Origin: Escherichia coli
Lineage (GTDB): Bacteria; Pseudomonadota; Gammaproteobacteria; Enterobacterales; Enterobacteriaceae
Assembly: GCF_003334815.1 (NCBI RefSeq)
Contig: NZ_QOWO01000056.1
Length of the DNA stretch: 15,311 nt
Reading direction: 5' to 3' (one strand)
Shown here: positions 1 through 15,082 of the stretch, in pieces
Numbering within the stretch: position 1 is the stretch's first letter
Layout: every line of letters starts with the position of its first letter
Program-made: the position numbers and the translations under genes
Notes under the pieces: model-generated
What the model saw: only the letters and a program-made list of their open reading frames with translations
Database searches by the model: none
What the model was told of the DNA's origin: nothing

Positions 1-2
1 AC

Positions 3-1174
<1,172 letters not shown>

Positions 1175-1376
1175 CGAAAGTATCTTAGCGGGCATGAAAA
1201 TGGCAAATAACGGTCAAACATCGTGGCGTTGACATTCTGGCTGGAAGTATCGAGTACACGCTCGTAAGCGGCCCTCACGGCCCGCTAACGCGGAGATACG
1301 CCCCGACTTCGGGTAAACCCTCGTCGGGACCACTCCGACCGCGCACAGAAGCTCTCTCATGGCTGAAAGCGGGTAT

Positions 1377-1590
1377 GGTCTGGCAGGGCTGGGGATGGGT
1401 AAGGTGAAATCTATCAATCCGTACCGGCTTACGCCGGGCTTCGGCGGTTTTACTCCGGTATCACATGTAACCACAGCGTGCCGCCTTACATGCCGCTGAA
1501 GCGGCATTCAGTAGACAGGCTATGCACGACTCGCCAGTCTGGCCTGAACATGATATAAAATGAATATAAATAGACAGAATAGGGTTATTT
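1377..1590 (+). repeat. Copy 1 of a diverged ~200-bp direct repeat (structured leader-like element) upstream of the 294-aa gene
   Basis: Matches 9636-9834 by hand alignment: the first 61 nt have 5 mismatches, starting GGTCTGGCAGGG..GGGTAAGGTGAAA..GTACCGGCTTACGCCGG; a second block (TATCACATG..GTGCCGCCTTACATGCCGCTGAAGCGGCAT) is about 84% identical. Weaker similarity continues to the start codon. Copy 1 carries about 21 extra bp (GCTTCGGCGGTTTTACTCCGG). Confidence 0.7.
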
Positions 1591-2475
1591 ATGGATTTAT
1601 ATCACTTTACAGCAATTCCTATGTTGCATTCCATACTTGCATCTGAAGGCCTGAGAGAAGGATATCTAACGTTGTATGATGGAACAATTTTGTATAATAA
1701 AGTATGGTTAACGACATCTCCATTACCATATGGTCACGGATTATGTAACGGTACTGAAAAATTAAGTGAATCAGAAAAATCATTTATGCGAAGAGTCGGT
1801 AATATATCTGAGTCTACGTCTATAAATGGAACACATAATAAAAAGTTAATAAGGTTAAAAATAGATACTGAATGGATAAAAAAGCAGCCTGGATTTTGCT
1901 CATATAAAAAGCTGATGCGTGACCTTGGACAACCTAAAGCTTATGTTAAGTACGTAGGTGCAATGGGGGTTGAGGGGGCAAGGGGGATGACCGATGAGCA
2001 GATAAGTAAAATTATGCGAAAAGGTAACACAAAAGAAGATACCTGGTATATCTTTAATGGGGTCATCCCACCTTCAAAAATAGTCTCTGTTGAATATATG
2101 GAAACTAAAGATAAATATATACCATATGATTTTGAATTGCATGGAAGGGGATATATAGAAAACTCCGGCATTTATCCGATTTCGAATTTATTATTATCTG
2201 ATCTGAATCATACAATGCGAAATATTACATTTTTACCAGGTTCTGTCATAGCGTTTTGTCATAAAGCAAATTCAGAAGAAAATATTTTATTCAGACATGT
2301 ATTATTCACATGTTCAATCTCCTTGAGAAATTTTTCAGTACTGATAGCAACAGGTGATGAGACATCTTTCTATATTCATCTGGATGTATTAAAAAGTTGG
2401 ACTCAAAAAAACAGTAAAGTACTATGCCAACTTTTTGAAAAAGCACGTGAAAGTTACCACAGATACTATGGTTAG
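1591..2475 (+). CDS. Hypothetical protein, 294 aa, AT-rich, function unknown
   Basis: Long ORF in strongly AT-rich DNA with Lys/Asn/Ile-rich codon usage, unlike the flanking IS and backbone. No motif recognised with certainty. The N-terminal LYHFT..SIL..GL pattern is faintly reminiscent of ART-fold (DarT/DUF4433-like) N-termini, but downstream motifs do not obviously match. Confidence 0.6.
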   Translation: MDLYHFTAIPMLHSILASEGLREGYLTLYDGTILYNKVWLTTSPLPYGHGLCNGTEKLSESEKSFMRRVGNISESTSINGTHNKKLIRLKIDTEWIKKQPGFCSYKKLMRDLGQPKAYVKYVGAMGVEGARGMTDEQISKIMRKGNTKEDTWYIFNGVIPPSKIVSVEYMETKDKYIPYDFELHGRGYIENSGIYPISNLLLSDLNHTMRNITFLPGSVIAFCHKANSEENILFRHVLFTCSISLRNFSVLIATGDETSFYIHLDVLKSWTQKNSKVLCQLFEKARESYHRYYG

Positions 2476-2824
2476 AAACCACTGCGGGGAGAACATCAGT
2501 GGCACAAAACTAGACCGCCCGGAACCGGGACGCTTACTGATGGACAGTCATCGCAATGATATCTTGCTGGTTGAGCAGATAGGGGCTCCGTGGGAATTTC
2601 TGCGATAACACCCGCTAAGCGATTTCTCCCTGACGGAAATCACTTGTTTTTCGTTCAGAGGCAGGCAAGAGGAATATTCATCCCCAAAAACGGCGTTTTC
2701 ATATGCGGAAAACGCTGCCGGATAGTCGAATAGTACGACAAACTGACTTCTGACGTTTTCCGTACATTTCAGATTCAGTAACCCCGAATATTTGGGGTTG
2801 GTATGGCTAACGCCTTGAATTTCA

Positions 2825-2977
2825 ATGAACAATATTTTGTTACCGTGTACTGTCGCAGAAATGCCCACGGAACCCCTACTTGGACAGCATGTACTTTATG
2901 AAGTGAATGATGAGGCCAGTCGTGTCAATATCCTGGCGGTTGTAGGCCAGCGTCAGAATCCCCGATTCATTCTTTGA
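2825..2977 (+). pseudogene. Possible remnant of a RelE/ParE-family toxin (C-terminal half only)
   Basis: A 50-codon ORF ends ..GQHVLYEVNDEASRVNILAVVGQRQNPRFIL*, resembling the RelE/ParE C-terminal core (compare RelE ..GYRLVYQVIDEKVVVFVISVGKRER..). No matching N-terminal half was found in any frame upstream. Confidence 0.3.
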
Positions 2978-3012
2978 GTGTCCGGCTTGGAACTCCATCT
3001 TCAGAGAATCGA

Positions 3013-3678
3013 TCAACGTTCTTTAGCTCCTTCCACTAACAGCCGACCTATCTCAAACACCGCAGCTGACCGTCCCGACTTCACCGCTTCGGCTTTCTGT
3101 CCCTCAACAAACCAGTTATTACCGTCCGTTCGGACCAACTCAAACATCCATGACATATCGTAAACGTGTTCCGGGATCAGCGACCCTTCTCCGGCCAGAA
3201 TACCCGCCGTTATGGAGTGGTTGCCCCCGTGCACAAAGCCAATACGCCAGGGCAACCACAGGTCAACATAGTGGTTGTTTTTATCTTGCTTCCACGGCTT
3301 CCCCTTATGGGTTCCAATGCGTGAAACGTTATCGATATAGCGTGGTAGGCTCCAAGGCCACGGCAGCACTATGTCGCTTGCCAGCGACAACGGATAATCA
3401 GCGCCGTTCATCTCACACTCTTTCATCTTTTCGTAAGATTGTATTTGGGTAAGTCCCTTAAAGAAGAACTCCTGCGGGGTCATATCCGGGCGGGCATCTG
3501 TTCCCTCCTCAGCTACCGCCAGCAAGAAATCACTCTGTACTGGCCGCACGATAGCGCGAATGAGATCTGGTAGCGCCTTAACGGGTAGTTTCTCTGCCAC
3601 AGAAAGCAGATGATTGAAGCGTTTTTTTTCATTGGCTATAGTTGCTTTATCTTTCTTGTTTCGGTTCCAGAACATCAC
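3013..3678 (-). CDS. Hypothetical protein, 221 aa, function unknown
   Basis: ORF with a strong upstream Shine-Dalgarno (TAAGGAGGG about 9 nt before the GTG/ATG start); Trp-rich segment PWPWSLP..DLWLPWRIGFVHGGNHS; no family recognised. Convergent with the 294-aa gene. Confidence 0.6.
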   Translation of the reverse strand: MMFWNRNKKDKATIANEKKRFNHLLSVAEKLPVKALPDLIRAIVRPVQSDFLLAVAEEGTDARPDMTPQEFFFKGLTQIQSYEKMKECEMNGADYPLSLASDIVLPWPWSLPRYIDNVSRIGTHKGKPWKQDKNNHYVDLWLPWRIGFVHGGNHSITAGILAGEGSLIPEHVYDMSWMFELVRTDGNNWFVEGQKAEAVKSGRSAAVFEIGRLLVEGAKER

Positions 3679-4247
3679 TGTCTGTAGCCCTCCTTATCGT
3701 GATCAGGATGATGGTTTTCATTCTAATGGTGTAGTAGTTTCACGTCACGCGCACGTGCATATTCTTCGAAAGCTTCGGCGTTAGCCGGTCAACCAGGGGT
3801 TTGAGGCCCAACCGTACGAGATCGTACGCTAAGTTCATTTTTTGAGCAGAAGAGGTGAGTAAAGAAAACGAGGGTTTTGTTTACTCTTCCCGTCAATGCC
3901 AGTAGCCATGCGGTTTCAGGGACTTTCAGTGTTAATAAACTCGGTAATCAAATCAACGTAAACCTGCCTAACAACGCCACGACTTTATTGACTTAAAATC
4001 ATATAGTTAGCTTCTTAGCGTACGTTTCCGCTCCATTGGGCTTCAAACCCCACACCCAATGACATGAGAAAAGCTGGATCTGATTCTCAAAATGCTGGGA
4101 TACCCATCGAGATGGAGAACTCAGTCAATGTTCCATTCTTTCTGAAATATGTGTGGGGACACTGATCTGTCGGGAGCCGGATGCGGTAGTTCCGCAGGTC
4201 CGGTTCTGAGGAGGGGCCCGTCCGGGCAACCGGCGGGTCTACTCACC

Positions 4248-4811
4248 TCATCCCCCTACAACCACTCCCATTCGTTTAAGTATTTTTAAACCTGCTTCCT
4301 GTGGTATCTTTATAGATAAGATCCTGTTTATCTCAGGATTTATATCGAGACCTTCTGTCATTGAAAAATCACAGTGAGACAAATCAGAATGTCTGAACTC
4401 TGTATTATTAAACTCCGAACCAGTAAAATCAGATTTACGAAGGTCTGTTTCCTCAAATAAACAATCACGGAAGCGACAGGATAAAAAAATAGATTTCTGT
4501 AACCGTAAACTAATAAAATCAACAAATCTCAAATCACAATTTACAAGAGAAAAAGTACAGGGAAACATAATGTCTGCTGCATTTACTCCTTGTAATAAAC
4601 AATCTTTGAATTCACAGTCAATAAGTTTAAAAAAATTAAGTTTTAAATTCTTTATTGAGCAGTTTACGAAGCGACATTTTTCGAACTCACAATCGCGAAA
4701 GTTAAAGTTGTCAAGCTGTATTCGTTCAAATATACAATTGTAATAATTTACACCTGATAATTCACTTTCACTGAGGTGTCGTTTTGTGATTCTTTTTTCT
4801 ATTATATCCAT
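4248..4811 (-). CDS. mcbG: Microcin B17 immunity protein McbG (pentapeptide-repeat, Qnr-like gyrase protection), 187 aa
   Basis: Last gene of the mcb operon by position; length matches McbG; pentapeptide-repeat character visible (CIFERIQLDNFNFRDCEFEKCRFVNCSIKNLKLNFFKLIDCEFKDC..). Confidence 0.92.
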   Translation of the reverse strand: MDIIEKRITKRHLSESELSGVNYYNCIFERIQLDNFNFRDCEFEKCRFVNCSIKNLKLNFFKLIDCEFKDCLLQGVNAADIMFPCTFSLVNCDLRFVDFISLRLQKSIFLSCRFRDCLFEETDLRKSDFTGSEFNNTEFRHSDLSHCDFSMTEGLDINPEINRILSIKIPQEAGLKILKRMGVVVGG

Positions 4812-4814
4812 GTG

Positions 4815-5546
4815 TCAGTCTCCTGTTCCCATAACTTCTTTAATAAATGCCTTTTCTGGAGTTGTTTCATTATTGGATTGAATAAAATCACTCATATCAG
4901 AATAACGATTTATACTATTTTTTGAAAGCATATAGAAGGGGATTTTATCTCTTGTTAATTCATCAAAAATATGAGTTGAGAAAAATACCGTTTTCCCGTC
5001 AGCGGTGATCTTATTTATCAGTTCCCATAACATCATTCTGTACTGAATATCAATGCCTACAGTTGGTTCATCCAGTAAAAATAAACGGGCATTTTTGCAA
5101 AGCGTTAGCATCAAAGATATGATAAGCCAACGCTTCTCTCCATAACTTACCGTGTAAGTCCTTTTACGTCTTATTTTATCATAGCGAATGAAAAAATTAT
5201 CATTCCATTTATGATTAAGCTCTGTCCATGCCTGTTTTTTAGTTAACTTATTGAAGCAGCAAATCAAATCAAGAACCTCCTCATTCCTTAGTGTACCTGA
5301 AAGATTTATGACTTGAGGTAGACTTACTAATTCTCCACCAGAGAAATTTCGCTTGAGGGTCCCTTCATAATTACTGACTCCGCCCCTGATAAGGTTAAAA
5401 AGAGTGGTCTTCCCGGCTCCATTTTCTCCAAGCAGACCTATCAACTCTCCCTGCTCAATCTTAAGCGACAGATTATTGAAAACAGGGGGTAAATTTACTT
5501 TATATGAAAAGCTCAGAGAGTTGATTTCTAAAAGAGGTATGGTCAT
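4815..5546 (-). CDS. mcbF: Microcin B17 export/immunity ABC transporter ATP-binding protein McbF
   Basis: Walker A GENGAGKTT, ABC signature-like FSGGE, Walker B LFLLDEPT; 4-nt overlap with mcbE (ATGA) suggests translational coupling. Confidence 0.92.
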   Translation of the reverse strand: MTIPLLEINSLSFSYKVNLPPVFNNLSLKIEQGELIGLLGENGAGKTTLFNLIRGGVSNYEGTLKRNFSGGELVSLPQVINLSGTLRNEEVLDLICCFNKLTKKQAWTELNHKWNDNFFIRYDKIRRKRTYTVSYGEKRWLIISLMLTLCKNARLFLLDEPTVGIDIQYRMMLWELINKITADGKTVFFSTHIFDELTRDKIPFYMLSKNSINRYSDMSDFIQSNNETTPEKAFIKEVMGTGD

Positions 5547-6268
5547 TGAGAACTCCAGACTGGCTCAGTTTTGAAGGTTAGTGCTGAAATAATACTTATG
5601 ATTAACATTATACTATAGAAAAATATCGTCATCAGAGACAACTCCTGGTCTGACTGGAGTATTGTAGAATAGATGGCGATAGGATTAACCTGATTTATCC
5701 AGTAAACGATCCCCTCATTATATTTTAATGATACAATTCCTGATACCATACAGACAGTTATTAATACAGAATAGATAGTGCTGGCTGTTTGGAATGTGAC
5801 TCTGAACGATGCCATGAAAGTGAGTGAAACCATCATAAATGCATTTATGTATATCGATTTTAAAATAATCATTACTATTTGATAATCTGGACTTGCCTGG
5901 AATCCTGTTAGTACGACTAAAATGAAAAAAAACACATACAAAATAGACATGATAAGTGAGGCTATTAATTGAGAACGAATAAATAATAGTCGACCATCCA
6001 TATTATGCACGAAGGTAGCAATAAAACCACTTTCTCTTCTTCCGACCAGATACAGACAGTAATTAAACAGAACAACAGAAAAAGAAATGTAGCCTACAAA
6101 CCATGATATTTGTTTTCCGAGCCATGCTGTATCACCATAATGAAGTTCAATTTCATTGAAATGAAGGAAAAAGAACAACACTGTAGGTGACATAATTGTC
6201 CATATTAAGCTGAAAGGGGTTCTGATTTGTTCCATCAGAAAAATTATCGCCATTTTTAATGTAACCAT
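5543..6268 (-). CDS. mcbE: Microcin B17 export ABC transporter permease McbE, 241 aa
   Basis: Highly hydrophobic multi-pass membrane protein of the correct length, positioned between mcbD and mcbF. Confidence 0.9.
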   Translation of the reverse strand: MVTLKMAIIFLMEQIRTPFSLIWTIMSPTVLFFFLHFNEIELHYGDTAWLGKQISWFVGYISFSVVLFNYCLYLVGRRESGFIATFVHNMDGRLLFIRSQLIASLIMSILYVFFFILVVLTGFQASPDYQIVMIILKSIYINAFMMVSLTFMASFRVTFQTASTIYSVLITVCMVSGIVSLKYNEGIVYWINQVNPIAIYSTILQSDQELSLMTIFFYSIMLIISIISALTFKTEPVWSSQ

Positions 6269-6277
6269 TTGTTATCC

Positions 6278-7468
6278 TTATGGGAATGGTACCATCTTTG
6301 ATTCTCTGACTTTAATACCGTCCCCGGTATGGTAAATTTTATTATTAATGTTTATTGCACCTGAGTTATTCATATGAAGGAAAAAATCAGGGCTTACTAT
6401 TTTTGTGTACCAGACAAGGCTGTTACTTACTCTTTCCCTGGCATAGTAAACAAAAATATTATCAGAAATTTGTTGAAGATAGTTTAATAAATTTGTGTCT
6501 GACGTAATATTTTCCTCAAGCGTTAACTTGACATCATCAGACAGTAGTACCGTATTTTCACACAAATCCGTAAACGACTCGTACTTGTTGCATGACATAA
6601 AGTGACGCTGGTAACTATCAATAATGTCATCATCAGTATAACCGCCAATAAGAAAGTTGTGCAGGCATATATACGATTGCCACAATTCCACTACGGATTT
6701 ACAAAGTGCTTTTTTCAGACTATTAGCATAGGATAATCCGGTACTGTATTTTATTCGACTGATTTTGTTTTTTGTGCCATACAGGGTTAGTACTGCGTGT
6801 CCAGGAGCTCCGGGCAGGGTGATATCGAAAATCCTGATATCTCCTTCTGACCTGAGAGCCAGTAAAATCTCATCTATATGATTTATGCCTGTTACTATTT
6901 CACTGGATATTTCAGTATTGGCTTTTCCCTGTAACCAGTAAAGAAGGAGGGACTGTCTCTCCATAAATTCACACAAGGAACCTTCTATGGCATCGTTCAA
7001 ACTACCATGAAAGCTACATCCGCATGTATCTCTGTCAGGATAAAATTTCAGATCATCTGCAGCGGTTATATTGTCGAGTGCAATTATGACTGCAGGTATT
7101 TCTTGTTGTTCAAGGCTAAACAGATTAAAGGCTCTGACCGTTTTAAATTTATGGGTTATGATTTCATCGCGGGTCAGTGATGAGATCTGAAAAAATGCTT
7201 CGGTAAAAGCCTTTGCAGCAGATGGAGGCATCATCTCATATAATGTTTTCTGACCACCGGTGACTATCTCATTAAAAAAATGACGGCGTTCAAAATATTC
7301 ACCTATTGCCCCCTGAATTGACTTCAGAGTTTCACCGGCCGCGCTGGCTGGTGTAATACGCTCATAGTCCCATATCTGAGAAAACGTTGGCATATTTCTG
7401 TTCAGTTTTGGACTCATGGCCATTGTGGCCGGCCATGCGGACATAAGGTTACTGTAGACATTTATCAT
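6278..7468 (-). CDS. mcbD: Microcin B17 synthetase YcaO-type cyclodehydratase McbD, 396 aa
   Basis: Position and length match McbD of the mcbABCDEFG operon; start overlaps the mcbC 3' end by 20 nt. Confidence 0.92.
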   Translation of the reverse strand: MINVYSNLMSAWPATMAMSPKLNRNMPTFSQIWDYERITPASAAGETLKSIQGAIGEYFERRHFFNEIVTGGQKTLYEMMPPSAAKAFTEAFFQISSLTRDEIITHKFKTVRAFNLFSLEQQEIPAVIIALDNITAADDLKFYPDRDTCGCSFHGSLNDAIEGSLCEFMERQSLLLYWLQGKANTEISSEIVTGINHIDEILLALRSEGDIRIFDITLPGAPGHAVLTLYGTKNKISRIKYSTGLSYANSLKKALCKSVVELWQSYICLHNFLIGGYTDDDIIDSYQRHFMSCNKYESFTDLCENTVLLSDDVKLTLEENITSDTNLLNYLQQISDNIFVYYARERVSNSLVWYTKIVSPDFFLHMNNSGAININNKIYHTGDGIKVRESKMVPFP

Positions 7469-8267
7469 CGTTTACATCTCCAAAAAACTGAACGATCAGT
7501 GGCGCTACGGTCCTCTGATCCAGATTCATTGTTTTTGCTACGTATGAATCGGTATATCCCGCCCATACCCGGTTTTTCAGTCCTATTTGATCTGCAACCA
7601 ATACTGCGTTCTGATACATCGAACCTGTTTCCATTAAGGCCATCCGGTATCCTCTGTAGCGATATTTGAACAAAGCTTTTTCAAAAATAATGCAATAGAC
7701 GAGAGCAAAATGGGGTTTACCAAGACGTTCCGAATCCCCACCGGACAGGCTTCGGTAGAGTGACTGAGTATTACATGTAGCAACAGGTTCCAGTGCCTGA
7801 CTTAGCGGCAGGTAGTGATAAACATTAGTTCCTGCCTGCCAGTTTTCTGTATTTTCAGATAATCTGCATAAAAAAACTTCAATCGGGTACAATGCCCCCC
7901 CAGAAGGATAAGGTCTTCTTACAGAGCCAGGATCAGGTGAGCTGAATGCATTGACTAATAACTTTTCAATAGTACGAATGGAAAGTTTATTTTTGTCGCA
8001 AAAGTTTATTCCTGATGGGAGCCTTTCACGACTAAAATTATGTGATGAGGATATGTTTATTACGGAGCTGAAACCTGGCCTGAAGAGAACTTCTTTATTT
8101 TCAAATTTCTCCAGATGGGCAAGAGGTACCGCGGACACGAAAGTTCGTTCAGCAAATTCGGGGAGGGAAGCAAAGTTACCTCTGACATGAAAATCTTTAA
8201 CAATGGCCAGAACTTCAGGATCTGTGTAATGCGTTACTTCCACTAAAGAGAGTTCGTGTTTTGACAT
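7449..8267 (-). CDS. mcbC: Microcin B17 synthetase FMN-dependent dehydrogenase McbC, 272 aa
   Basis: Position and length match McbC; immediately follows mcbB with a 1-bp gap. Confidence 0.92.
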   Translation of the reverse strand: MSKHELSLVEVTHYTDPEVLAIVKDFHVRGNFASLPEFAERTFVSAVPLAHLEKFENKEVLFRPGFSSVINISSSHNFSRERLPSGINFCDKNKLSIRTIEKLLVNAFSSPDPGSVRRPYPSGGALYPIEVFLCRLSENTENWQAGTNVYHYLPLSQALEPVATCNTQSLYRSLSGGDSERLGKPHFALVYCIIFEKALFKYRYRGYRMALMETGSMYQNAVLVADQIGLKNRVWAGYTDSYVAKTMNLDQRTVAPLIVQFFGDVNDDKCLQ

Positions 8268-8268
8268 G

Positions 8269-9156
8269 TTATCTCTCCAGACAGCTGCAAGCCTGCCAGT
8301 GAATTACCGGCTCTTTACATAAAATACTGGTGATTAAATCAGCGCTAACAGATGACATAAAGTTATCGACATGACTTTTAACCAGTGAAGTACCTGTCAA
8401 CTCCTGAAGTCGCCGTTTTATTAAATGATAGCTGAATCCTCTTTCTGATTCGCCTAAAGCCAATGCTGGTAGTGTCATTTGGTATTTTTTCAGTAACTGA
8501 AGTAAGTTTGCCCAGGACATTTCGTTACGTCTGAAGCTTTTTTCTTCCCTGCTCAGCCATCTCTCTATATGACAAAAATGGCAGGGAGTACCAAGATCAG
8601 GTGAATATACTCCATCTATCCTGAATGACTCCTTTAGGTAGTAGCTTTGGATGAAGGCAACACCAGGGTTACTTTCAAATTTTGAATAGATTCTTTTTAC
8701 AATGTCTGAATGATAGTTTTCGAGATGTAACCAGATTAGTGTTGAATCGCTCACATTAATATTATTATCTTTTATATCAATGATATGAGAAACAAAAACA
8801 CCATCAGATTTCCATTGTTCCCGGGCATTACTGAAAAGATGTGGAACATCGCTTATTATGACTGAGTTTACCCAGAGAGGTGATGTTTTCGTTTTATTTA
8901 TCACGCCTGTGGTAATAAGAAACTCTTTGCCCTTGTCTTTATCAATAAGCGATTCGTCCAGTAGTTTATCAAGGAGGTATTCAGAAATAATACCCTGTTT
9001 GGATCGTAGGCTTTCGAGTACTTTTTTCATTCCCTCATGTGTAATGTCTACTGAAGAAATGTAGGTAATAAGCAGGGTCTTTGTATTTCTGGAAATTATC
9101 TCAAATGGCAGAATATTGATCATATCTTTTCCTTTTTTAATATCAGGGAGCACCAT
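8269..9156 (-). CDS. mcbB: Microcin B17 synthetase zinc-binding scaffold/cyclodehydratase subunit McbB, 295 aa
   Basis: Position and length match McbB; Cys/His clusters (..PCHFCHIERW.. and C-terminal ..HWQACSC..) are consistent with a zinc tetrad. Confidence 0.92.
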   Translation of the reverse strand: MVLPDIKKGKDMINILPFEIISRNTKTLLITYISSVDITHEGMKKVLESLRSKQGIISEYLLDKLLDESLIDKDKGKEFLITTGVINKTKTSPLWVNSVIISDVPHLFSNAREQWKSDGVFVSHIIDIKDNNINVSDSTLIWLHLENYHSDIVKRIYSKFESNPGVAFIQSYYLKESFRIDGVYSPDLGTPCHFCHIERWLSREEKSFRRNEMSWANLLQLLKKYQMTLPALALGESERGFSYHLIKRRLQELTGTSLVKSHVDNFMSSVSADLITSILCKEPVIHWQACSCLER

Positions 9157-9164
9157 GCTCCCTG
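9144..9164 (-). promoter_or_regulatory. Hairpin in the mcbA-mcbB intergenic region sequestering the mcbB Shine-Dalgarno, with the AUG in the loop
   Basis: Minus-strand RNA reads 5'-CAGGGAGC-AUGGU-GCUCCCUG-3': a perfect 8-bp stem whose 5' arm contains the AGGGAG ribosome-binding site, with the mcbB start codon in the 5-nt loop. Confidence 0.5.
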
Positions 9165-9182
9165 AACGGTTAATTCAACGTA

Positions 9183-9380
9183 TCAGATATGTGAACCACT
9201 TCCGCCGCTGCCACCGTTTCCACCACTACAACCGTTGCTGCAACCACCACAACCGCCACCTTGACCACCGCAGCTACCGCCGCCACCACCACCAATGCCA
9301 ACACCTAATGGAGACTGGCGTGATAATTTAAGAGCATCAACGGACAAAACTACACCAAATTCACTCGCTTTTAATTCCAT
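9183..9380 (-). CDS. mcbA: Microcin B17 precursor peptide McbA (65 aa in this copy)
   Basis: Translation MELKASEFGVVLSVDALKLSRQSPLG|VGIGGGGGGSCGGQGGGCGGCSNGCSGGNGGSGGSGSHI is the McbA leader plus Gly/Ser/Cys-rich core. Shine-Dalgarno AGGAG lies 5-6 nt upstream. Confidence 0.95.
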   Translation of the reverse strand: MELKASEFGVVLSVDALKLSRQSPLGVGIGGGGGGSCGGQGGGCGGCSNGCSGGNGGSGGSGSHI

Positions 9381-9600
9381 AAGGACTCCTTTTTTAAGGG
9401 AAATTAATGCTTATGACATCTGAATAGTATGTTGGCCAACACTAGTTACTTGCCGTAATTAACTATATTTTGCAATGATAATTTGAACTAAATTTGTACG
9501 CCTGTTAAATATTTAATAATAATATCAGTTGGTTATGTTTGTGTGGTTATTGTTTTTTTACAAAAATTAATATTGTGTTTACATTTTGCTTTCAGTTGCT
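9381..9600 (-). promoter_or_regulatory. Putative mcb operon promoter region (Pmcb)
   Basis: About 220 bp of very AT-rich non-coding DNA directly upstream of mcbA. The mcb operon is known to be driven by a stationary-phase, OmpR-dependent promoter upstream of mcbA. Exact -35/-10 not assigned. Confidence 0.45.
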
Positions 9601-9635
9601 GTCAGGATGTCACACTACCCCTTTAAGCCCCCACT

Positions 9636-9834
9636 GGTCTGGCAGGGCCGGGGGTGGGTAAGGTGAAACCTGTCAATCAGTACCGGCTTACGCCGGTATC
9701 ATATGCAACAACTGAGTGCCGCCTTCCATGCCGCTGGTGCGGCATATCCTGGTGACGATATCTGAATTGTTATAGATATGTATATACGTAGTAATGACAA
9801 GAATAGGATAAGTTAAAAATTTACAGGAGATGCA
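9636..9834 (+). repeat. Copy 2 of the diverged ~200-bp direct repeat, upstream of the small membrane protein gene
   Basis: See copy 1. Conserved hairpins CCGGCTTACGCCGG and ATGCCGC-NNNN-GCGGCAT (loop TGAA in copy 1, TGGT in copy 2, stem identical). Confidence 0.7.
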
Positions 9835-10131
9835 ATGATTCAGACACGTAATCAATATCTGCAGTTTATGCTGGTTATGCTGGCTGCATGGGGCATTAGC
9901 TGGGGAGCCAGATTTGTCATGGAGCTGGCCGTTCTGCTTTATGGGCCAGGAAAAAACTATTTGTTCTTCAGTCATGGTGCTGTTCTGATGTACCTGCTGT
10001 GTGTTTTCCTGGTATACCGCCGTTGGATAGCTCCACTACCGGTCGTTGGTCAGCTGCGCAACGTTGGCGTACTGTGGCTGGTCGGTGCGATGGCCGTGGT
10101 GTATATCGGTGTATTTCTGCTCGATCGATAG
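9835..10131 (+). CDS. Small hydrophobic membrane protein, 98 aa, about 3 predicted TM segments, function unknown
   Basis: Good Shine-Dalgarno (AGGAG 5 nt upstream); three hydrophobic stretches (FMLVMLAAWGISW, AVLMYLLCVFLVY, VLWLVGAMAVVYIGVFLL); GC-rich codon usage in contrast to the adjacent mcb genes. Confidence 0.6.
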   Translation: MIQTRNQYLQFMLVMLAAWGISWGARFVMELAVLLYGPGKNYLFFSHGAVLMYLLCVFLVYRRWIAPLPVVGQLRNVGVLWLVGAMAVVYIGVFLLDR

Positions 10132-10175
10132 GAATATTCCGGCAAGTGTCATCTGTATTTAAAGGTCGTGTGAGT

Positions 10176-10628
10176 ATGAAATTTATGGAATGTGCTGTCC
10201 GGGATGTGATTTATGGGACCAATGTCCGTATTGTCAAACCGGTCAACATTTATGAATGTGAACTCAGGGACAATGTGTTTGTCGGCCCCTTCGTTGAGAT
10301 ACAGAAAGGCTGTGTCATTGGTAGTGGAAGCCGGATACAGTCGCACACGTTTATTTGTGAGAACGTAACACTGGGGGAGAACTGCTTCATTGGTCATAAC
10401 GTGACGTTCGCCAACGATCTGTTTCGTTCAGGAGCACCAGATCCGTCACCGGATAACTGGATCAGCATTACCCTGGGGGATTCGGTTACTGTTGGCAGTG
10501 GAGCCATTATTCTGTCTCCGTATATATGCAGCGGAGCTGTTATTGGTGCGGGTTCAGTTGTGGTAAAACCGATTGAGAACAAAGGCATTTATGCAGGAAA
10601 CCCGGCAAGACTGCTCAGAATATTATGA
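10176..10628 (+). CDS. Hexapeptide-repeat (left-handed beta-helix) acyl/acetyltransferase, about 150 aa
   Basis: Repeated [LIV]-G-x-x-x-x hexapeptide pattern and the characteristic C-terminal ..IGAGSVVVKPIENKGIYAGNPARLLR. The track ORF 9999..10628 has an implausible N-terminal extension overlapping the membrane protein gene; the ATG at 10176 (MKFMECAV..) is the likely start. Confidence 0.75.
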   Translation: MKFMECAVRDVIYGTNVRIVKPVNIYECELRDNVFVGPFVEIQKGCVIGSGSRIQSHTFICENVTLGENCFIGHNVTFANDLFRSGAPDPSPDNWISITLGDSVTVGSGAIILSPYICSGAVIGAGSVVVKPIENKGIYAGNPARLLRIL

Positions 10629-10633
10629 AAAAG

Positions 10634-10658
10634 AAAAGGGCCGTTACTGGCCCTTTTT
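10634..10658 (+). terminator. Rho-independent terminator after the acetyltransferase gene (possibly bidirectional)
   Basis: AAAA-GGGCC-GTTACT-GGCCC-TTTTT: GC stem flanked by an A-run and a T-run, 6 nt after the stop codon. Confidence 0.7.
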
Positions 10659-11031
10659 ATCAGAGGTAGGTCTGTGAATACGGTAGGTGTACAGAAATCG
10701 ACTGCCGGGGATCGATTTCCAGGGCCGCCCGGTATTCTGCGTCAGTGATATCACCTTTTTTTCAGTAAATAACCGAGAGCATCGTTTCCCAGCCCTGACA
10801 GTATGCGTATTCTGGCGACCCGGACTGGCAAATAACCCATCAAAAACGTTATTGCCAGACATTGCGAACTCACCAATTTTGATTATTGGAGCCACTTTTT
10901 CATAAGTTCCGTGAAATTATTTCATAATAACGACCATGTTTATTTTATGTAATGACTGGCAATAAAATAACTTGATTAAGTTCCCTTTATCCAGCCTGAT
11001 AGTGGATAAAGGAAACTCAATCATAATTTAA

Positions 11032-11385
11032 TTAGTTTATTAACTTCATCGCATTCTTTTTTGTCTCCTCATCACTTTTTTGCTCCGATTGTGAAGAGGA
11101 CTGAATGATTGTTGAAGAATTTAAATCGGCCATCTCTTTTGGAAATAGCGATCTCAATATATTCACGATATCTGAAAATGTGGTTTCTTTCGTCAGCAAT
11201 TCACATAAAAGGAAAGGGGCCCTGGGATCTTGTCTGTATAAGGCCAGACCTGCCGTCAGTGCAGCCCGGTTAAGGCGGCTGCGTTCCCCTTGCGGGATAC
11301 TGTCCAGTGTATCACAAACAATTTTATCTGTTTGATTTACATCTGGATTTAGCTTAAAGGCAATGGTTCTGCGCTTGTCCATCAT
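11032..11385 (-). CDS. parR: Plasmid partition centromere-binding adaptor ParR (StbB), 117 aa
   Basis: Translation [50 protein letters not shown].. is recognised as R1/R100-type ParR; TAATG stop/start overlap with parM. Confidence 0.9.
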   Translation of the reverse strand: MMDKRRTIAFKLNPDVNQTDKIVCDTLDSIPQGERSRLNRAALTAGLALYRQDPRAPFLLCELLTKETTFSDIVNILRSLFPKEMADLNSSTIIQSSSQSEQKSDEETKKNAMKLIN

Positions 11386-12347
11386 TAATTACCTATGAGA
11401 TACATACCGTTAACTAAATCATATTGAGAGTTATTGGTTTTAAAAAAACGTTCATCACGAATCTGTGTGTTTTTTTTTACTGCATCGCATATTAATTCTG
11501 CGCCACCACCTATAACCATAACATGAGTATAACCAGAAAATTCATTGAGTGTATTTAATACACGTTGCTCAAGTTTACGAAGTGCTTCATTCATTGCTTC
11601 GGTGACTATTGATATTTTGTTCTCATCATTAATTCGTTGCTTCAGATAGTTATTATCTTTTCTGTGAATAATTATATCGTCAGCAAGATAGCTACTTCCT
11701 TTTGTTCTCGCAAGAGAAAGGGCATCTTTTACTGCAGATGTGACCAGAGATACACCAAGAGATGAGTCTCCGTATATTTTACTGATCCCCGATAATTTCC
11801 CCATTACCTGAGAAATATCTAATGTGGTGCCCCCGAGATCTATAATTAATAAAGAATCTAACTCATCCAGTTCTTGTAGAACTTCATAACCTGCCGGTAT
11901 AGATTCAGGCATGACTTTTACATCTTTTATTGTGAATGCATCCCCACCATTTAATGTAATTTTTTTCCGGAAGTTTGCTTTCTTACGCTCAATATTTTCC
12001 GTATTGGGTTGGTTATTCCTGTCGTAATACTCTGTCAGAGGAAGTGTGCAAACAATATCCACTTCACTTACCGGCAGGCCACTGGTCAGTAAGGCGTGGT
12101 GCACCGCAACGACATTAACGTCGCTGTATTGCCATGCGATATTGGTTGTGACTACAGCATCCGGGCTGATTGGATCAAATGAATACTGTTCGCCGTTCAG
12201 TGTGTAGTTAAAGACCTTTTTATCACCAAAAGAAACTGCCCACTCGCGTTTGAAGCTGTTCGGGCTAATGTGCTGTTTAATTGTTCCGTCGCTTTCCTGC
12301 CACTGTAGTTTGATGTTTGTTGAACCGTCATCAATGAATACCAACAT
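11385..12347 (-). CDS. parM: Plasmid segregation actin-like ATPase ParM (StbA), 320 aa
   Basis: Translation [36 protein letters not shown].. is recognised as R1-type ParM (actin fold, 320 aa); Shine-Dalgarno AGGAG upstream. Confidence 0.95.
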
Positions 12348-12362
12348 TTATAAAACTCCTTA

Positions 12363-12515
12363 TGGTGTTTTTTTTGGTGTTTGTTTGGGTGTGTTTTGGG
12401 TTTTAAGTGGGTTTATTTGTCAAGTTTACCCCATTTTAACTATCAATCAATGATTATTTGTCTTGTTTTGGTGTTTTATTGGGTTTGGCGTGGGTTGTTT
12501 TTGGGTTTTGTTTGG
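12363..12515 (-). repeat. parC: parC centromere: two clusters of five 11-bp iterons flanking the par promoter
   Basis: Directly visible 11-bp direct repeats ending in TGG/GGG (TGGTGTTTTTT, TTGGTGTTTGT, TTGGGTGTGTT, TTGGGTTTTAA, GTGGGTTTATT, then a ~43-bp spacer, then TCTTGTTTTGG, TGTTTTATTGG, GTTTGGCGTGG, GTTGTTTTTGG, GTTTTGTTTGG). This is the known R1 parC architecture. Confidence 0.8.
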
Positions 12516-12524
12516 CGGATAACA

Positions 12525-12860
12525 AAAGATGTCGCCGGGCTCCTCTTTTTACTGCGCCGGCTGACGCGGCGCGGCAGGAACGCTGCCTGTGGTCAGTGTC
12601 CCGCGTCCGGCCGGGCACGGGACGGGCGCTTTTACCGCTCCCGGCTGGCGTCGGTGACAGTGTACGCCAGCTCGTCGCCCTTTTCTGATGAGCGCCCTTC
12701 AAGCCGCTTTCGCGGCATAGCCTTGCCGTCAAAAAGACGACGGCTGCGGTATTCCACGGTCGGCCTGACCCGTTACCGGACGCGGTGAACAGCCCACAGG
12801 CAGCGGGGAACGGGCACCACAGGGGTGCCCTCCCGGTGCCCTCTGTAAGAGAAGGAGCGT
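12525..12860 (+). promoter_or_regulatory. GC-rich, hairpin-dense non-coding region upstream of the methyltransferase; candidate single-strand initiation / ssDNA promoter (Frpo-like) element
   Basis: Numerous inverted repeats (GACGCGG..CCGCGTC, GCTGGCGT-12nt-ACGCCAGC, CGGCA-TAGCCT-TGCCG, GGGCAC-CACAGG-GTGCCC). Its first ~40 bp (AAAAGATGTCGCCGGGCTCC..TTTAC..) recur at 15085. The functional assignment is inference. Confidence 0.35.
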
Positions 12861-12864
12861 TGTT

Positions 12865-13548
12865 ATGTCCCGTTTTGTCCTCGGTAACTGCATCGATGTT
12901 ATGGCCCGTATTCCTGATAACGCCATTGATTTCATACTGACTGACCCGCCGTACCTCGTCGGTTTTCGTGACCGTTCCGGGCGCACCATCGCTGGCGATA
13001 AAACCGATGAATGGCTGCAACCGGCCTGTAATGAAATGTACCGCGTACTCAAAAAAGATGCGCTGATGGTCAGCTTCTATGGCTGGAACCGCGTCGATCG
13101 CTTTGTGGCCGCCTGGAAAAATGCGGGATTCAGCGTGGTTGGTCACCTGGTCTTCACCAAAAACTACACATCGAAGGCCGCATATGTGGGCTATCGCCAC
13201 GAATGCGCTTACATCCTGGCAAAGGGCAGTCCGGCCCGGCCCCGTAACCCTCTGCCGGATGTGCTGGGCTGGAAATATTCGGGCAACCGCCATCACCCGA
13301 CGGAAAAGCCCGTTACCAGCCTGCAACCACTGATTGAGAGCTTCACACATCCGAACGCGATTGTGCTGGACCCGTTTGCAGGCAGCGGCTCAACCTGCGT
13401 CGCCGCCCTCCAGTCCGGACGTCGGTATATCGGTATCGAGCTGCTTGAGCAGTATCACCGTACCGGACAGCAACGTCTGGATGCCGTACAGCGGGCCATG
13501 CAGCAGGGGGCCGCAAATGATGACTGGTTTATGCCGGAGGCTGCGTAA
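12865..13548 (+). CDS. Orphan DNA methyltransferase, beta-class N6-adenine/N4-cytosine type, 227 aa
   Basis: Catalytic motif IV DPPY (..FILTDPPYLVGF..) precedes the SAM-binding motif I (..LDPFAGSGSTCVAA..), the beta-class order. No adjacent restriction endonuclease gene. Shine-Dalgarno AAGGAG upstream. Confidence 0.85.
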   Translation: MSRFVLGNCIDVMARIPDNAIDFILTDPPYLVGFRDRSGRTIAGDKTDEWLQPACNEMYRVLKKDALMVSFYGWNRVDRFVAAWKNAGFSVVGHLVFTKNYTSKAAYVGYRHECAYILAKGSPARPRNPLPDVLGWKYSGNRHHPTEKPVTSLQPLIESFTHPNAIVLDPFAGSGSTCVAALQSGRRYIGIELLEQYHRTGQQRLDAVQRAMQQGAANDDWFMPEAA

Positions 13549-13770
13549 ATGAACTATGCCGGACATGAAAAACTTCGCGCCGAAGTGGCGGAGGTGGCCA
13601 ATGCCATGTGCGACCTGCGTACAACCATGAATGAGATGGAGCGGCGGTACAGCTTTAATGCTGACACCCTGCCGGAACGTCTGGTGCGTCAGACGTTGTT
13701 TCGCGCAAACCGCCTCCTGATGGAGGCATATACCGAAATTCTGGAACTGGATTCCTGCTTCAAAGATTGA
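13549..13770 (+). CDS. Hypothetical small protein, 73 aa (plasmid leading-region type)
   Basis: ORF starts at the stop codon of the methyltransferase gene, suggesting coupling; no motif recognised. Confidence 0.5.
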   Translation: MNYAGHEKLRAEVAEVANAMCDLRTTMNEMERRYSFNADTLPERLVRQTLFRANRLLMEAYTEILELDSCFKD

Positions 13771-13781
13771 GGGGAGAGAGT

Positions 13782-14216
13782 ATGTACGGAACATGCGAAA
13801 TACTCTGCCGGGAGCTGGCAGCAAAGTATCCGGGAGACACGCCGCTGATGCTGGTTATCTGGTCTCCGGAAGAGATTCAGGCCCTTGCTGACGGAATGGA
13901 TATTTCCCTGTCCGATCATGAAATCAGGACCGTCCTGGCGCGCCTGGAGGACATCCCGGAAGACCAGCGGACTGAGTCCGGTATTTCTTCGGGTGCGGCT
14001 ATGGAGATTATCAGCAACGTGAGTGAAAACCGCCAGGTGACCGTCCCTGCTGAACTGCTGGCGTCCCTGATTCAGACCGCTGAACAGGCATTGTGGAAGC
14101 GTGAATGGGCCGCCCGTGATAACGGCCTCGTCGTCCCGGAATGCGTCACCCGCCGTCAGGCGGTGGTTAATCAGGCCCGCGCCCTGCTGAAAAACAACAC
14201 ACACGAAAACGACTGA
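13782..14216 (+). CDS. Hypothetical protein, about 144 aa (plasmid leading-region type)
   Basis: ORF with purine-rich Shine-Dalgarno (GAGGGGAGAGAG) before the ATG at 13782; the track's TTG start at 13767 is less likely. No confident family assignment. Confidence 0.6.
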
Positions 14217-14260
14217 TGTTATCGCCGCCTGCGGGCGGCGATTCAGGGAGACCATTAATC

Positions 14261-15031: not shown

Positions 15032-15038
15032 TGACGCT

Positions 15039-15062
15039 GGCGGGGAAAAATCTCCGCCTTTT
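15039..15062 (+). terminator. Rho-independent terminator after the 256-aa gene
   Basis: GGCGGGGA-AAAA-TCTCCGCC stem (8 bp, one G-U pair) followed by TTTT, beginning 8 nt after the stop codon. Confidence 0.6.
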
Positions 15063-15082
15063 CCAGCCGGTCCCCGGACAGA

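What the first reader, a model, noticed from the sequence alone, without database searches (positions are those of the whole stretch)
1510..9620. Sharp compositional island: the microcin module is AT-rich and embedded in GC-richer plasmid backbone
From about 1510 to 9620 the DNA is conspicuously AT-rich (codon usage dominated by AAA/AAT/ATT/TTT), whereas the IS element, the membrane protein/acetyltransferase pair, and the methyltransferase region are GC-balanced to GC-rich. The 221-aa gene is an intermediate exception inside the block. This fits horizontal acquisition of the mcb operon plus the 294-aa gene from a low-GC donor, with the boundaries coinciding with the two direct-repeat copies.
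Basis: seen in the sequence. Interest (0 to 1): 0.4.

Follow-up and report, generated by a model that had tools for sequence, protein, structure and literature searches.

The report
AT-rich microcin B17 cargo mosaic
The AT-rich stretch is real, but it is two unrelated AT-rich gene modules (the known microcin B17 operon and a separate 294-aa gene) joined by ordinary-GC DNA and small transposon relics in the cargo slot of an IncFII plasmid, so it is an ordinary plasmid mosaic and not one island acquired at once.

Summary
Observation partly confirmed. GC falls sharply at about 1508-1545 (0.59 to 0.35) and rises locally at about 9620-9635 (0.30 to 0.47). Both steps sit next to a real diverged direct repeat (1376-1507 and 9635-9746). 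But 1510-9620 is not one homogeneous block. Unbiased segmentation puts change points at 1545, 2480, 4270, 6775 and 12530, and none at 9620. About 1.7 kb inside the block has GC 0.49. The backbone parMR region is as AT-rich (0.38) as mcb (0.38).

Interpretation not supported as stated. The 294-aa gene occurs at 99% identity or more in about 300 plasmids, nearly all without mcb. Most mcb plasmids carry a ParDE-type toxin-antitoxin pair in its place. The joint between the two contexts is a 295-bp Tn3-derived miniature element (2582-2876) with no target duplication. The repeats are two diverged copies of the IncFII replicon tail. The second copy continues into a truncated CPBP protease gene, as in R100, so it is a recombination scar and not an insertion duplication.

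Low GC is a family-wide property of mcb-like clusters, including a Pseudomonas chromosome (0.43 against 0.62). No low-GC donor was found. A second mcb lineage lies inside a Tn3-family transposon.

Ordinary and largely known. Interest is low.

The parts
1..1234 (+). 3' part of an IS21-family element (istB 374-1174). Its end lies at about 1234. Related mcb plasmids lack it. GC 0.53.
   Evidence: NCBIfam NF038214 IstB, 302 bits. Homology to relatives starts at 1235. IS21 copies match 1-1241 at 99.7%.
1235..1507 (+). Tail of the conserved IncFII basic replicon, downstream of repA and ori in relatives. It includes repeat copy R1 (1376-1507) and ends in the hairpin ATGCCGC-TGAA-GCGGCAT (1490-1507). 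GC 0.60.
   Evidence: It is contiguous with repA in L001, L003, L006 and R100. Identity is 99.3% to L006 and 95.3% to R100, L002 and L003. Different DNA follows the hairpin in different plasmids.
1508..2581 (+). AT-rich module 1: the 294-aa gene (1591-2475) with its flanks. GC 0.36, GC3 0.26. It is an independent cargo gene with a predicted ADP-ribosyltransferase-like fold.
2582..2876 (.). TIME1: a 295-bp Tn3-derived inverted-repeat miniature element (IRs 2582-2619 and 2839-2876). It is the joint between the orf294 context and the mcb-plasmid context. There is no 5-bp target duplication (AGATA against TACTT).
   Evidence: Inverted repeat I1. IRs start with GGGG and are 89-94% identical to the IR beside a Tn3-family tnpA fragment in L008. 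The IR end also matches DNA beside a DUF4158 transposase. Both outer ends are homology breakpoints.
2877..2989 (+). Remnant of the 3' end of a relE/parE toxin gene plus 22 nt downstream of it. It is a relic of the ParDE-type toxin-antitoxin pair that occupies this position in most mcb plasmids.
   Evidence: 96.5% identical to L002 4944-5056, L003 2379-2491 and L015 2379-2491.
2990..3795 (-). DUF6710 module: the 221-aa gene at 3013-3678 on the minus strand. GC 0.50, GC3 0.55. This is where the DNA absent from the mcb-less plasmid L002 begins.
   Evidence: Pfam PF20457, E = 1.3e-48. The segment occurs alone in other plasmids, at about 86% identity beside MobF relaxases. It is not linked to mcb in the second lineage.
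3796..4051 (.). TIME2: a 256-bp Tn3-derived miniature element with IS101/Tn1000-like 38-bp IRs (3796-3833 and 4014-4051). There is no target duplication here (AACCA against ACACC).
   Evidence: Inverted repeat I2. It occurs as a discrete 256-bp unit in unrelated plasmids at 81-100% identity (H280-H285). Its IR is 89% identical to the IS101 IR and 86% to the IR of the mcb-carrying transposon in L010. Homology with L016 starts exactly at 3796.
4052..4247 (.). 196-bp spacer, GC 0.54, between TIME2 and the mcbG stop codon. Fragments 91-94% identical lie beside group II intron ltrA genes in other plasmids.
   Evidence: H286-H291.
4248..9380 (-). AT-rich module 2: the microcin B17 operon. mcbG 4248-4811, mcbF 4815-5546, mcbE 5543-6268, mcbD 6278-7468, mcbC 7449-8267, mcbB 8269-9156, mcbA 9183-9380. 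GC 0.378, GC3 0.25-0.37.
   Evidence: ORF sizes 187/243/241/396/272/295 aa match Table 1 of PMC10912980. McbD is 100% identical to cluster P0001. Annotation of L001 and L003. McbA translation. Per-gene GC.
9381..9634 (-). AT-rich mcb upstream/promoter region, GC 0.31. Homology to the second mcb lineage ends at about 9484.
9635..9746 (+). R2: the second, diverged copy of the IncFII replicon tail. It starts at the equivalent of 1376, lacks 21 nt, and ends in the same hairpin.
   Evidence: Identity to R100 is 93.5% (9635-9696), and 95.2% for 9688-10123, which includes the downstream CPBP homology. Identity to R1 is only 92% and 84%.
9747..10135 (+). Truncated 5' part of the CPBP/CAAX intramembrane protease gene that follows the replicon in R100-type plasmids. 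Homology ends at 10123.
   Evidence: More than 2800 plasmids match 9635-10123 at about 91%. R100 has a 654-bp CPBP gene here, followed by pemIK. L008 has the full-length gene after mcb and R2.
10136..12530 (.). Backbone: hexapeptide-repeat acetyltransferase (10176-10628, +), parR (11032-11385, -), parM (11385-12347, -) and parC-like 11-bp iterons (12357-12519). The parMR part has GC 0.38.
   Evidence: (D1). 99.2% identical to the mcb-less plasmid L002.

Best explanation
The low-GC stretch is the variable cargo slot of an IncFII-type plasmid, between the end of the basic replicon and the parMR partition genes. It holds at least two unrelated AT-rich cargo units that arrived separately. They are joined by about 1.7 kb of ordinary-GC DNA made of transposon relics and gene fragments.

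Unit 1 (1508-2581) is a 294-aa gene that normally sits next to the replicon of other IncF plasmids, beside the anti-phage gene ppl.

Unit 2 (4248-9634) is the microcin B17 operon with its promoter.

Shown by comparison:
- The left arm (1235-2582) is 99.3% identical to an orf294/ppl plasmid.
- The right arm (2877-9729) is 99.6% identical to pMccB17-type plasmids.
- A 295-bp Tn3-derived miniature element without a target duplication sits exactly at the joint.
- The flanking 'direct repeats' are two diverged copies of the replicon tail. The second is still attached to the truncated CPBP gene that follows the replicon in R100.

Inferred:
- The hybrid arose when the miniature element, moved in trans by a Tn3-family transposase, fused two IncF plasmids. 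Homologous recombination in the shared backbone then reduced the cointegrate.
- R2 is the scar left when a redundant second IncFII replicon was deleted.

The AT-richness of mcb is an old, family-wide trait that travels with the operon. It is not evidence of a recent import from a named low-GC donor.
For: - Segmentation and per-segment GC.
- Independent distribution of orf294.
- Toxin-antitoxin pair instead of orf294 in most mcb plasmids, and the relE remnant at 2877-2989.
- TIME1 ends coincide with homology breakpoints in three independent comparisons: L003/L005 at 2877, L004 at 2876/4108, and L006 at 2582.
- A cognate Tn3-family tnpA fragment with a TIME1-like IR is present in relative L008.
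- R2 plus the truncated CPBP gene equals R100 backbone.
- L015 holds a different cargo (colicin-type lysis and immunity genes) in the same slot, again followed by a partial R tail.
- The mcb segment is 99.6% identical between plasmids whose flanks are only 93-95% identical.
- mcb-like clusters are AT-richer than their flanks in five contexts: 0.378/0.488, 0.404/0.487, 0.438/0.508, 0.482/0.552 and 0.432/0.624.
Against: - No parental plasmid with TIME1 inside an intact relE, or beside orf294 with a different right flank, was found. The cointegrate route is therefore inferred and not observed.
- Neither TIME has a 5-bp target duplication here.
- L002, the only mcb-less plasmid with the toxin-antitoxin pair directly beside the acetyltransferase, is itself a unique recombinant. 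No clean empty site exists.
- The ultimate reason for the low GC of mcb remains unexplained.
Confidence: 0.78

Rival explanations
1. One reading: 1510-9620 is one compositional island. mcb and the 294-aa gene were acquired together from a low-GC donor, and the two direct repeats mark the insertion junctions.
For: GC steps lie within about 40 nt of the inner ends of both repeats. orf294 and the mcb genes have similarly low GC3, 0.26 against 0.25-0.37.
Against: - orf294 and mcb have independent distributions.
- 1.67 kb of GC 0.49 DNA with two TIMEs and a relE remnant lies between them.
- The repeats are 8-16% diverged and derive from backbone. R2 is contiguous with the CPBP gene as in R100.
- There is no change point at 9620.
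- No low-GC relative was found.
Confidence: 0.05
2. The AT-richness does not reflect any donor. It is produced or maintained on mobile elements themselves, by AT-biased mutation or relaxed selection on plasmid cargo, or by selection for AT-rich DNA that nucleoid proteins can silence. On this view mcb, orf294 and parMR are AT-rich for the same general reason.
For: - The backbone parMR region is as AT-rich as mcb, 0.380 against 0.378.
- mcb-like clusters stay 7-19 GC points below their surroundings in hosts from Mixta to Pseudomonas.
- All named relatives of both gene families are Gammaproteobacteria and other Proteobacteria with moderate or high GC.
- That plasmids and other mobile DNA tend to be AT-richer than host chromosomes is established general knowledge. 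It was not tested here.
Against: - Other cargo in the same slot (the DUF6710 gene, the acetyltransferase) and the leading region are not AT-rich. Being on a plasmid is therefore not sufficient.
- The chromosomal Mixta copy has GC3 of 0.52-0.61. This fits amelioration toward the host from a lower-GC starting point.
Confidence: 0.3
3. The R sequence, in particular its terminal hairpin at 1490-1507 and 9729-9746, is a dedicated recombination site at which cargo cassettes are exchanged. R1 and R2 would then be functional cassette boundaries and not passive scars.
For: Different DNA follows the same hairpin end in the window (orf294), in R100 (CPBP) and, less cleanly, in L002/L003 (toxin-antitoxin pair). 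A second partial R tail also lies to the right of a different cargo in L015.
Against: - No recombinase gene is associated with it.
- R2 and the L015 copy start at different internal points (the equivalents of 1376 and 1465), as expected for random deletion end-points.
- In L003 the R2 copy is truncated before the hairpin.
- The sequence after R in L002 keeps residual similarity to R100, so that divergence is gradual and not a clean cut.
Confidence: 0.07

Closest known systems
pMccB17, the prototype IncFII microcin B17 plasmid (GenBank ON989342; Ajeigbe et al. 2024, PMC10912980)
   Same: It has the same seven-gene mcb operon with the same protein lengths (295/272/396/241/243/187 aa). It has the same neighbours: a hypothetical gene on the mcbG side, the fdtC-type acetyltransferase, and stbAB/parMR. 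Plasmids with that published gene order (L003) are 99.6% identical to window 2877-9729.
   Different: - The window has the 294-aa gene plus TIME1 in place of most of ParDE.
- It has an IS21-family insertion at 1234/1235.
- It keeps R2 complete, with a truncated CPBP gene.
- It encodes a 65-aa McbA with 6 linker glycines instead of 10.
- The paper reports no transposable elements. L003-type plasmids do contain the 256-bp TIME2.
- pMccB17 itself was not available to check.
R100/NR1-type IncFII replicon-proximal region (repA, ori, CPBP protease, pemIK)
   Same: R1 and R2 both match the R100 replicon tail. R2 plus the 98-aa ORF is collinear with R100 L009 3501-4010 at 93-95% identity.
   Different: In the window the CPBP gene is cut after about 96 codons and fused to the acetyltransferase region. 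The copy is separated from the active replicon by 8.1 kb of cargo.
[quoted passage not shown] 2014, PMC4133298; PMC13367494)
   Same: Both elements have 38-bp Tn3-family IRs that start with GGGG, are 256-295 bp long, and encode no transposase. TIME2 recurs as a discrete unit in unrelated plasmids.
   Different: Neither copy here has 5-bp direct repeats. Their internal sequences match none of IS101, MITESen1, IMU or TIME244, with at most 66% global identity. They sit at recombination joints and do not form a TIME-COMP around a resistance gene.
Second mcb lineage inside a Tn3-family transposon (K. pneumoniae plasmid NZ_CP031793, L010; Edwardsiella tarda NZ_CP116677, L011)
   Same: Same seven genes in the same order, 79% nucleotide and 83% McbD identity over window 4264-9484. 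It is also AT-rich, 0.40 against flanks of 0.49, with the same gradient (mcbG lowest). A Tn3-type IR lies just beyond mcbG.
   Different: There the operon lies between a tnpA (975 aa), a serine recombinase and the terminal IRs. In the window no tnpA or tnpR remains, and the IR pair beside mcbG forms a self-contained TIME.

Membership tests
Microcin B17 (mcb) biosynthesis, export and immunity operon | Seven co-oriented genes mcbABCDEFG with the published product sizes | tested here: met
   ORFs of 65/295/272/396/241/243/187 aa on the minus strand. Sizes match Table 1 of PMC10912980 except McbA, which is 65 aa against 69.
Microcin B17 (mcb) biosynthesis, export and immunity operon | McbA precursor with leader, poly-Gly linker and a Gly/Ser/Cys-rich core | tested here: met
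   The translation is MELKASEFGVVLSVDALKLSRQSPLGVGIGGGGGGSCGGQGGGCGGCSNGCSGGNGGSGGSGSHI. It is identical to L003 McbA except for 4 fewer Gly.
Microcin B17 (mcb) biosynthesis, export and immunity operon | YcaO cyclodehydratase McbD identical or near-identical to the E. coli prototype | tested here: met
   100% identity to cluster P0001 (819 members) and to McbD in about 100 plasmids.
Single-event genomic or compositional island | Homogeneous atypical composition across the block | tested here: not met
   Internal change points lie at 2480, 4270 and 6775. The stretch 2582-4247 has GC 0.488.
Single-event genomic or compositional island | The whole block is present or absent as a unit among relatives | tested here: not met
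   orf294, the DUF6710 gene, TIME2 and mcb each occur without the others.
Single-event genomic or compositional island | Flanking direct repeats created by the integration event (target duplication or split att site) | tested here: not met
   The repeats are 132 and 112 nt long, 92% and 84% identical, with a 21-nt indel. Both are IncFII backbone sequence, and R2 is collinear with R100 beyond the repeat.
Single-event genomic or compositional island | An identifiable donor lineage of matching composition | tested here: not met
   Named McbD relatives are Enterobacterales, Pseudomonas, Cupriavidus and Rhizobium. orf294 relatives are E. coli, Serratia and Pantoea.
TIME (Tn3-derived inverted-repeat miniature element) | Terminal 38-bp IRs of Tn3-family type | tested here: met
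   TIME1 and TIME2 IRs start with GGGG and end with TAAG/TAAC. TIME2 IR is 89% identical to the IS101 IR. TIME1 IR is 91-94% identical to the IR next to the Tn3-family tnpA in L008.
TIME (Tn3-derived inverted-repeat miniature element) | Small (50-500 bp) and non-autonomous, with no transposase | tested here: met
   295 bp and 256 bp. The only ORF overlapping TIME1 (2548-2868, 106 aa) extends outside the element. It was not searched against any protein family and is assumed not to be a gene.
TIME (Tn3-derived inverted-repeat miniature element) | 5-bp direct repeats flanking the copy | tested here: not met
   TIME1 has AGATA against TACTT. TIME2 has AACCA against ACACC (read). This is expected if the copies are recombination joints, but it gives no direct proof of transposition.
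TIME (Tn3-derived inverted-repeat miniature element) | Recurs as a discrete unit in unrelated contexts | tested here: met
   TIME2 meets this: exact 256-bp hits in E. coli, Klebsiella, Morganella and Providencia plasmids. For TIME1 only the ends and a 215-bp part recur outside this lineage.
Tn3-family transposon carrying mcb (second lineage, L010) | Tn3-family transposase, resolvase-type serine recombinase and terminal IRs around the cargo | tested here: met
   tnpA matches NF033527 at 1138 bits. A 183-aa serine recombinase is present. IR_L lies at L010 1071-1108, and three IR copies lie after mcbG, the last ending at 10589, which is also the end of L010/L011 homology.
Tn3-family transposon carrying mcb (second lineage, L010) | 5-bp target duplication or an empty site showing transposition | tested here: not met
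   The flanks are AATAT and ATCGG. No plasmid joins the two flanks.
ADP-ribosyltransferase fold (Tpt1/KptA and DarT clade), for the 294-aa protein | ART-fold core and the NAD-binding or catalytic motif | tested here: inconclusive
   [not shown]

The most novel reading that the evidence does not exclude
The microcin B17 operon is, or was, the passenger of a Tn3-family transposon. The transposon is intact in the Klebsiella/Edwardsiella lineage and reduced to an IR-bearing relic beside mcbG in pMccB17-type plasmids. Tn3-derived miniature elements, which IS-finding tools miss (the pMccB17 paper reports no transposable elements), would then be the joints that shuffle bacteriocin, defence and toxin-antitoxin cargo in the replicon-proximal slot of IncF plasmids. 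The co-resident 294-aa gene would be an unrecognised DarT/Tpt1-like ADP-ribosyltransferase.
Probability: 0.45. Interest if true: 0.35.

Novelty: already known. Interest (0 to 1): 0.18.

Why it matters
It matters little beyond bookkeeping. The mcb operon, its IncFII carrier and the general AT-richness of horizontally moving cargo are all established. The useful outcome is a correction. A GC profile alone suggested one island bounded by repeats, but comparison with relatives shows a mosaic assembled in several steps, and the repeats are replicon-tail scars.

Two side results could interest plasmid biologists:
- mcb sits inside a Tn3-family transposon in a second lineage.
- Unannotated TIMEs lie exactly at the recombination joints of mcb plasmids.

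Tried and rejected
- **Clean empty site for the mcb block.** A chimeric query (1235-1507 + 9746-10900) found no plasmid with the flanks joined. The one mcb-less relative with the toxin-antitoxin pair next to the acetyltransferase (L002) has a unique junction and is itself a recombinant.
- **Target duplications for TIME1, TIME2 and the L010 transposon.** None found.
- **Empty site for the L010 transposon.** None found.
- **Tn3-type IR at the mcbA-side boundary (9597-9634).** None found.
- **Is the 215-aa gene occupying the DUF6710 position in L015 a DUF6710 homologue?** No.
- **Is TIME2 the same as MITESen1, which is also 256 bp?** No, 66% global identity. A MITESen1-like element does lie downstream of orf294 in L006 and L007.
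- **Sequence-family assignment of the 294-aa protein.** No hits in Pfam, NCBIfam, PADLOC, PHROGs or PDB sequences.
- **Rfam on the whole window.** No hits.
- **Literature statement on the low GC of the mcb operon.** Not found in the held library. I recall that a 2007 review by Duquesne et al. noted low G+C for microcin clusters, but I could not verify this.
- **pMccB17 (ON989342).** Not in the collections.
- **Exact source of the window.** Not found among complete E. coli genomes.

Full report
**What the window is.** The ORF sizes and order on the minus strand between 4248 and 9380 (187, 243, 241, 396, 272, 295 and 65 aa) are those of mcbG-F-E-D-C-B-A. McbD is 100% identical to the E. coli prototype cluster. 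The window from 1235 onward aligns at 98.2% to complete conjugative E. coli plasmids that carry repA (IncFII family), the mcb genes, an acetyltransferase, parM/parR and the leading-region methylase. Positions 1-1234 are the end of an IS21-family element (IstB) that none of these relatives has at this site.

**Checking the observation.** GC is 0.396 for 1510-9620, 0.597 for 1235-1507 and 0.505 for 9621-15311.

- The left edge is a true discontinuity. In 300-nt flanks GC goes 0.59 to 0.35 at 1509 (p = 6e-9).
- There is a local step at 9620, 0.30 to 0.47 (p = 6e-5).
- A maximum-likelihood segmentation with a BIC-like penalty places change points at 1545, 2480, 4270, 6775 and 12530, and none at 9620. 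At stricter penalties the low-GC domain is 1546-12530.
- Two internal steps, at 2480 and 4270, are as strong as the one at 9620.
- The stretch 2582-4247 (1.67 kb, a fifth of the 'island') has GC 0.488.
- The 221-aa gene has GC3 of 0.554. That is backbone level, not intermediate.
- mcbA has GC 0.515 only because of its glycine codons. Its GC3 is 0.30, like the rest of the operon.
- To the right, the parR-parM-parC backbone has GC 0.380, the same as mcb.

The direct repeats exist and are far beyond chance: 62 nt at 92% plus 58 nt at 84%, separated by a 21-nt indel.

**Comparative anatomy.** Six related arrangements were aligned to the window.

1. *L003 (CP090301).* This is the common mcb plasmid type and has the gene order published for pMccB17 (PMC10912980). 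The order is repA, ori, R, ParD/RelE toxin-antitoxin pair, DUF6710 gene, TIME2, mcb, truncated R2, acetyltransferase, parMR. Window 2877-9729 is 99.6% identical to it. The flanks are only 95.3% (1235-1507) and 93.2% (12522-15311) identical.

2. *L005 (a Klebsiella plasmid with an IncI-gamma/K1 replicon).* It is collinear with window 2877-15311.

3. *L006 (NZ_CP099591, no mcb).* It is 99.3% identical to window 1235-2582: repA, ori, R, the 294-aa gene. It then continues to the anti-phage gene ppl.

4. *The 294-aa module.* It occurs at 99% identity or more in about 306 plasmids. Only six carry mcb, and all six come from UK sheep faeces.

5. *L004.* It lacks window 2877-4107.

6. *L002 (NZ_AP027260).* It lacks mcb and has the toxin-antitoxin pair followed by the acetyltransferase. 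That junction is unique to this one record.

**The joints.** Window 2582-2876 is a 295-bp element bounded by 38-bp inverted repeats of Tn3-family type (GGGG...TAAG). I call it TIME1.

- Its left outer end is where homology with L006 stops.
- Its right outer end is where homology with L003 and L005 starts, and also where the L004 deletion starts.
- The next 113 nt (2877-2989) are the last part of the relE/parE gene and 22 nt downstream of it.
- The 5-bp flanks differ (AGATA against TACTT). This copy is therefore a joint between two contexts and not a simple insertion.
- A Tn3-family transposase fragment with an IR 91-94% identical to TIME1's sits in relative L008.

A second element, TIME2 (3796-4051, 256 bp), has IS101/Tn1000-like IRs. 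It recurs as an exact 256-bp unit in unrelated E. coli, Klebsiella, Morganella and Providencia plasmids. In the IncK2/Z plasmid L016, homology to the window begins exactly at its outer end, 3796.

The DUF6710 segment (Pfam PF20457) and the 196-bp spacer at 4052-4247 also occur on their own elsewhere.

**The repeats.** R1 (1376-1507) is the end of the conserved IncFII replicon module and closes with the hairpin ATGCCGC-TGAA-GCGGCAT.

R2 (9635-9746) is a second copy. It begins at the equivalent of 1376. It continues without a break into the first 96 or so codons of the CPBP/CAAX protease gene that follows the replicon in R100 and in more than 2800 other plasmids. Identity to R100 is 93-95%, against 92% and 84% to R1.

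In L008 the full-length CPBP gene and pemIK follow mcb and R2. In L015 the same slot holds colicin-type lysis and immunity genes, and it is again followed by a partial R tail that starts at a different point.

The repeats are therefore backbone sequence from two different IncFII lineages. They are most simply scars of plasmid-plasmid recombination followed by loss of the redundant replicon. That last step is inference.

**Where the low GC comes from.** A second mcb lineage (79% nucleotide and 83% McbD identity over window 4264-9484) is present in 28 plasmids of Klebsiella, Edwardsiella and E. coli. This defines the conserved core as mcbA-G plus about 100 nt upstream, without the DUF6710 gene or orf294.

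In L010 this core lies inside a Tn3-family transposon. The transposon has a tnpA of 975 aa (NF033527, 1138 bits), a serine recombinase and terminal IRs. The L010/L011 shared block ends exactly at the last IR. No target duplication or empty site was found.

More distant clusters were retrieved through McbD homologues. Every one is AT-richer than its surroundings:

| Context | Cluster GC | Flank GC |
|---|---|---|
| Window | 0.378 | 0.488 |
| L010 (second lineage) | 0.404 | 0.487 |
| Rep3 plasmid | 0.438 | 0.508 |
| Mixta theicola chromosome | 0.482 | 0.552 |
| Pseudomonas fluorescens chromosome | 0.432 | 0.624 |

All named relatives are Proteobacteria of moderate or high GC. A foreign, lower-GC ultimate origin is plausible, but it is old and unidentified. 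Maintenance of AT-richness on mobile DNA is an alternative that the data do not exclude.

**Literature.** The 2024 pMccB17 paper gives a plasmid GC of 51%, places mcb between a hypothetical gene and fdtC, with ParDE next to repA, and reports no transposable elements. It does not discuss a GC island or the R1/R2 repeats. Its own 149-bp repeats are in the leading region. TIMEs as a class are described in PMC4133298 and PMC13367494.

**Verdict.** The feature is real but ordinary, and the interpretation as a single island is wrong. What is present is a known operon in a known kind of plasmid cargo slot, assembled stepwise. Two unrelated AT-rich units happen to lie near each other. Novelty: already known. 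Interest: about 0.18.

Noticed in passing
window 9183-9380 (mcbA): McbA is 65 aa here instead of 69. The poly-glycine linker between leader and core has 6 Gly instead of 10. Annotated mcbA lengths in relatives range from 198 to 210 nt, so the GGN run appears to be length-polymorphic. The effect on processing by McbBCD is unknown.
   Followed up: partly
L010 (NZ_CP031793) 1071-10589; L011 (NZ_CP116677) 4390-10590: A second mcb lineage (83% McbD identity) lies inside a Tn3-family transposon: IR, tnpA of 975 aa, serine recombinase, mcbABCDEFG, then three nested IR relics. No target duplication or empty site was found.
   Followed up: partly
[not shown]
   Followed up: partly
window 3796-4051 and 2582-2876: Two unannotated Tn3-derived miniature elements. 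TIME2 is also present in pMccB17-type plasmids (L003 3298-3553), although the pMccB17 paper reports no transposable elements. Neither matches IS101, MITESen1, IMU or TIME244 internally.
   Followed up: yes
window 1234/1235; L008 5118-5158: The replicon tail is an insertion hot spot. An IS21-family element ends at 1234 in the window, and a Tn3-family transposon end abuts the equivalent of position 1255 in L008.
   Followed up: partly
window 12357-12519: An array of roughly 11-bp T/G-rich iterons lies upstream of parM. It is probably the parC centromere and promoter of the parMR system. The strongest GC step of the whole window (0.38 to 0.68) lies just after it, at about 12530.
   Followed up: no
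L015 (NZ_CP076712) 2700-6830: The same replicon-proximal slot holds colicin-type lysis and immunity genes, an Exc2 lipoprotein and two copies of a 215-aa hypothetical gene. The second copy is preceded by a 44-bp partial R tail. The slot seems to collect bacteriocin, defence and toxin-antitoxin cargo.
   Followed up: partly
window 4052-4256: A 205-bp GC-normal fragment between TIME2 and mcbG recurs at 91-94% identity beside group II intron ltrA genes in plasmids of E. coli, E. albertii, Salmonella and Aeromonas. Its nature is unknown.
   Followed up: no
L006 2854-3037; L007 6098-6159: A MITESen1-like TIME (89-95% identity, partial) lies just downstream of the 294-aa gene in non-mcb plasmids.
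   Followed up: no
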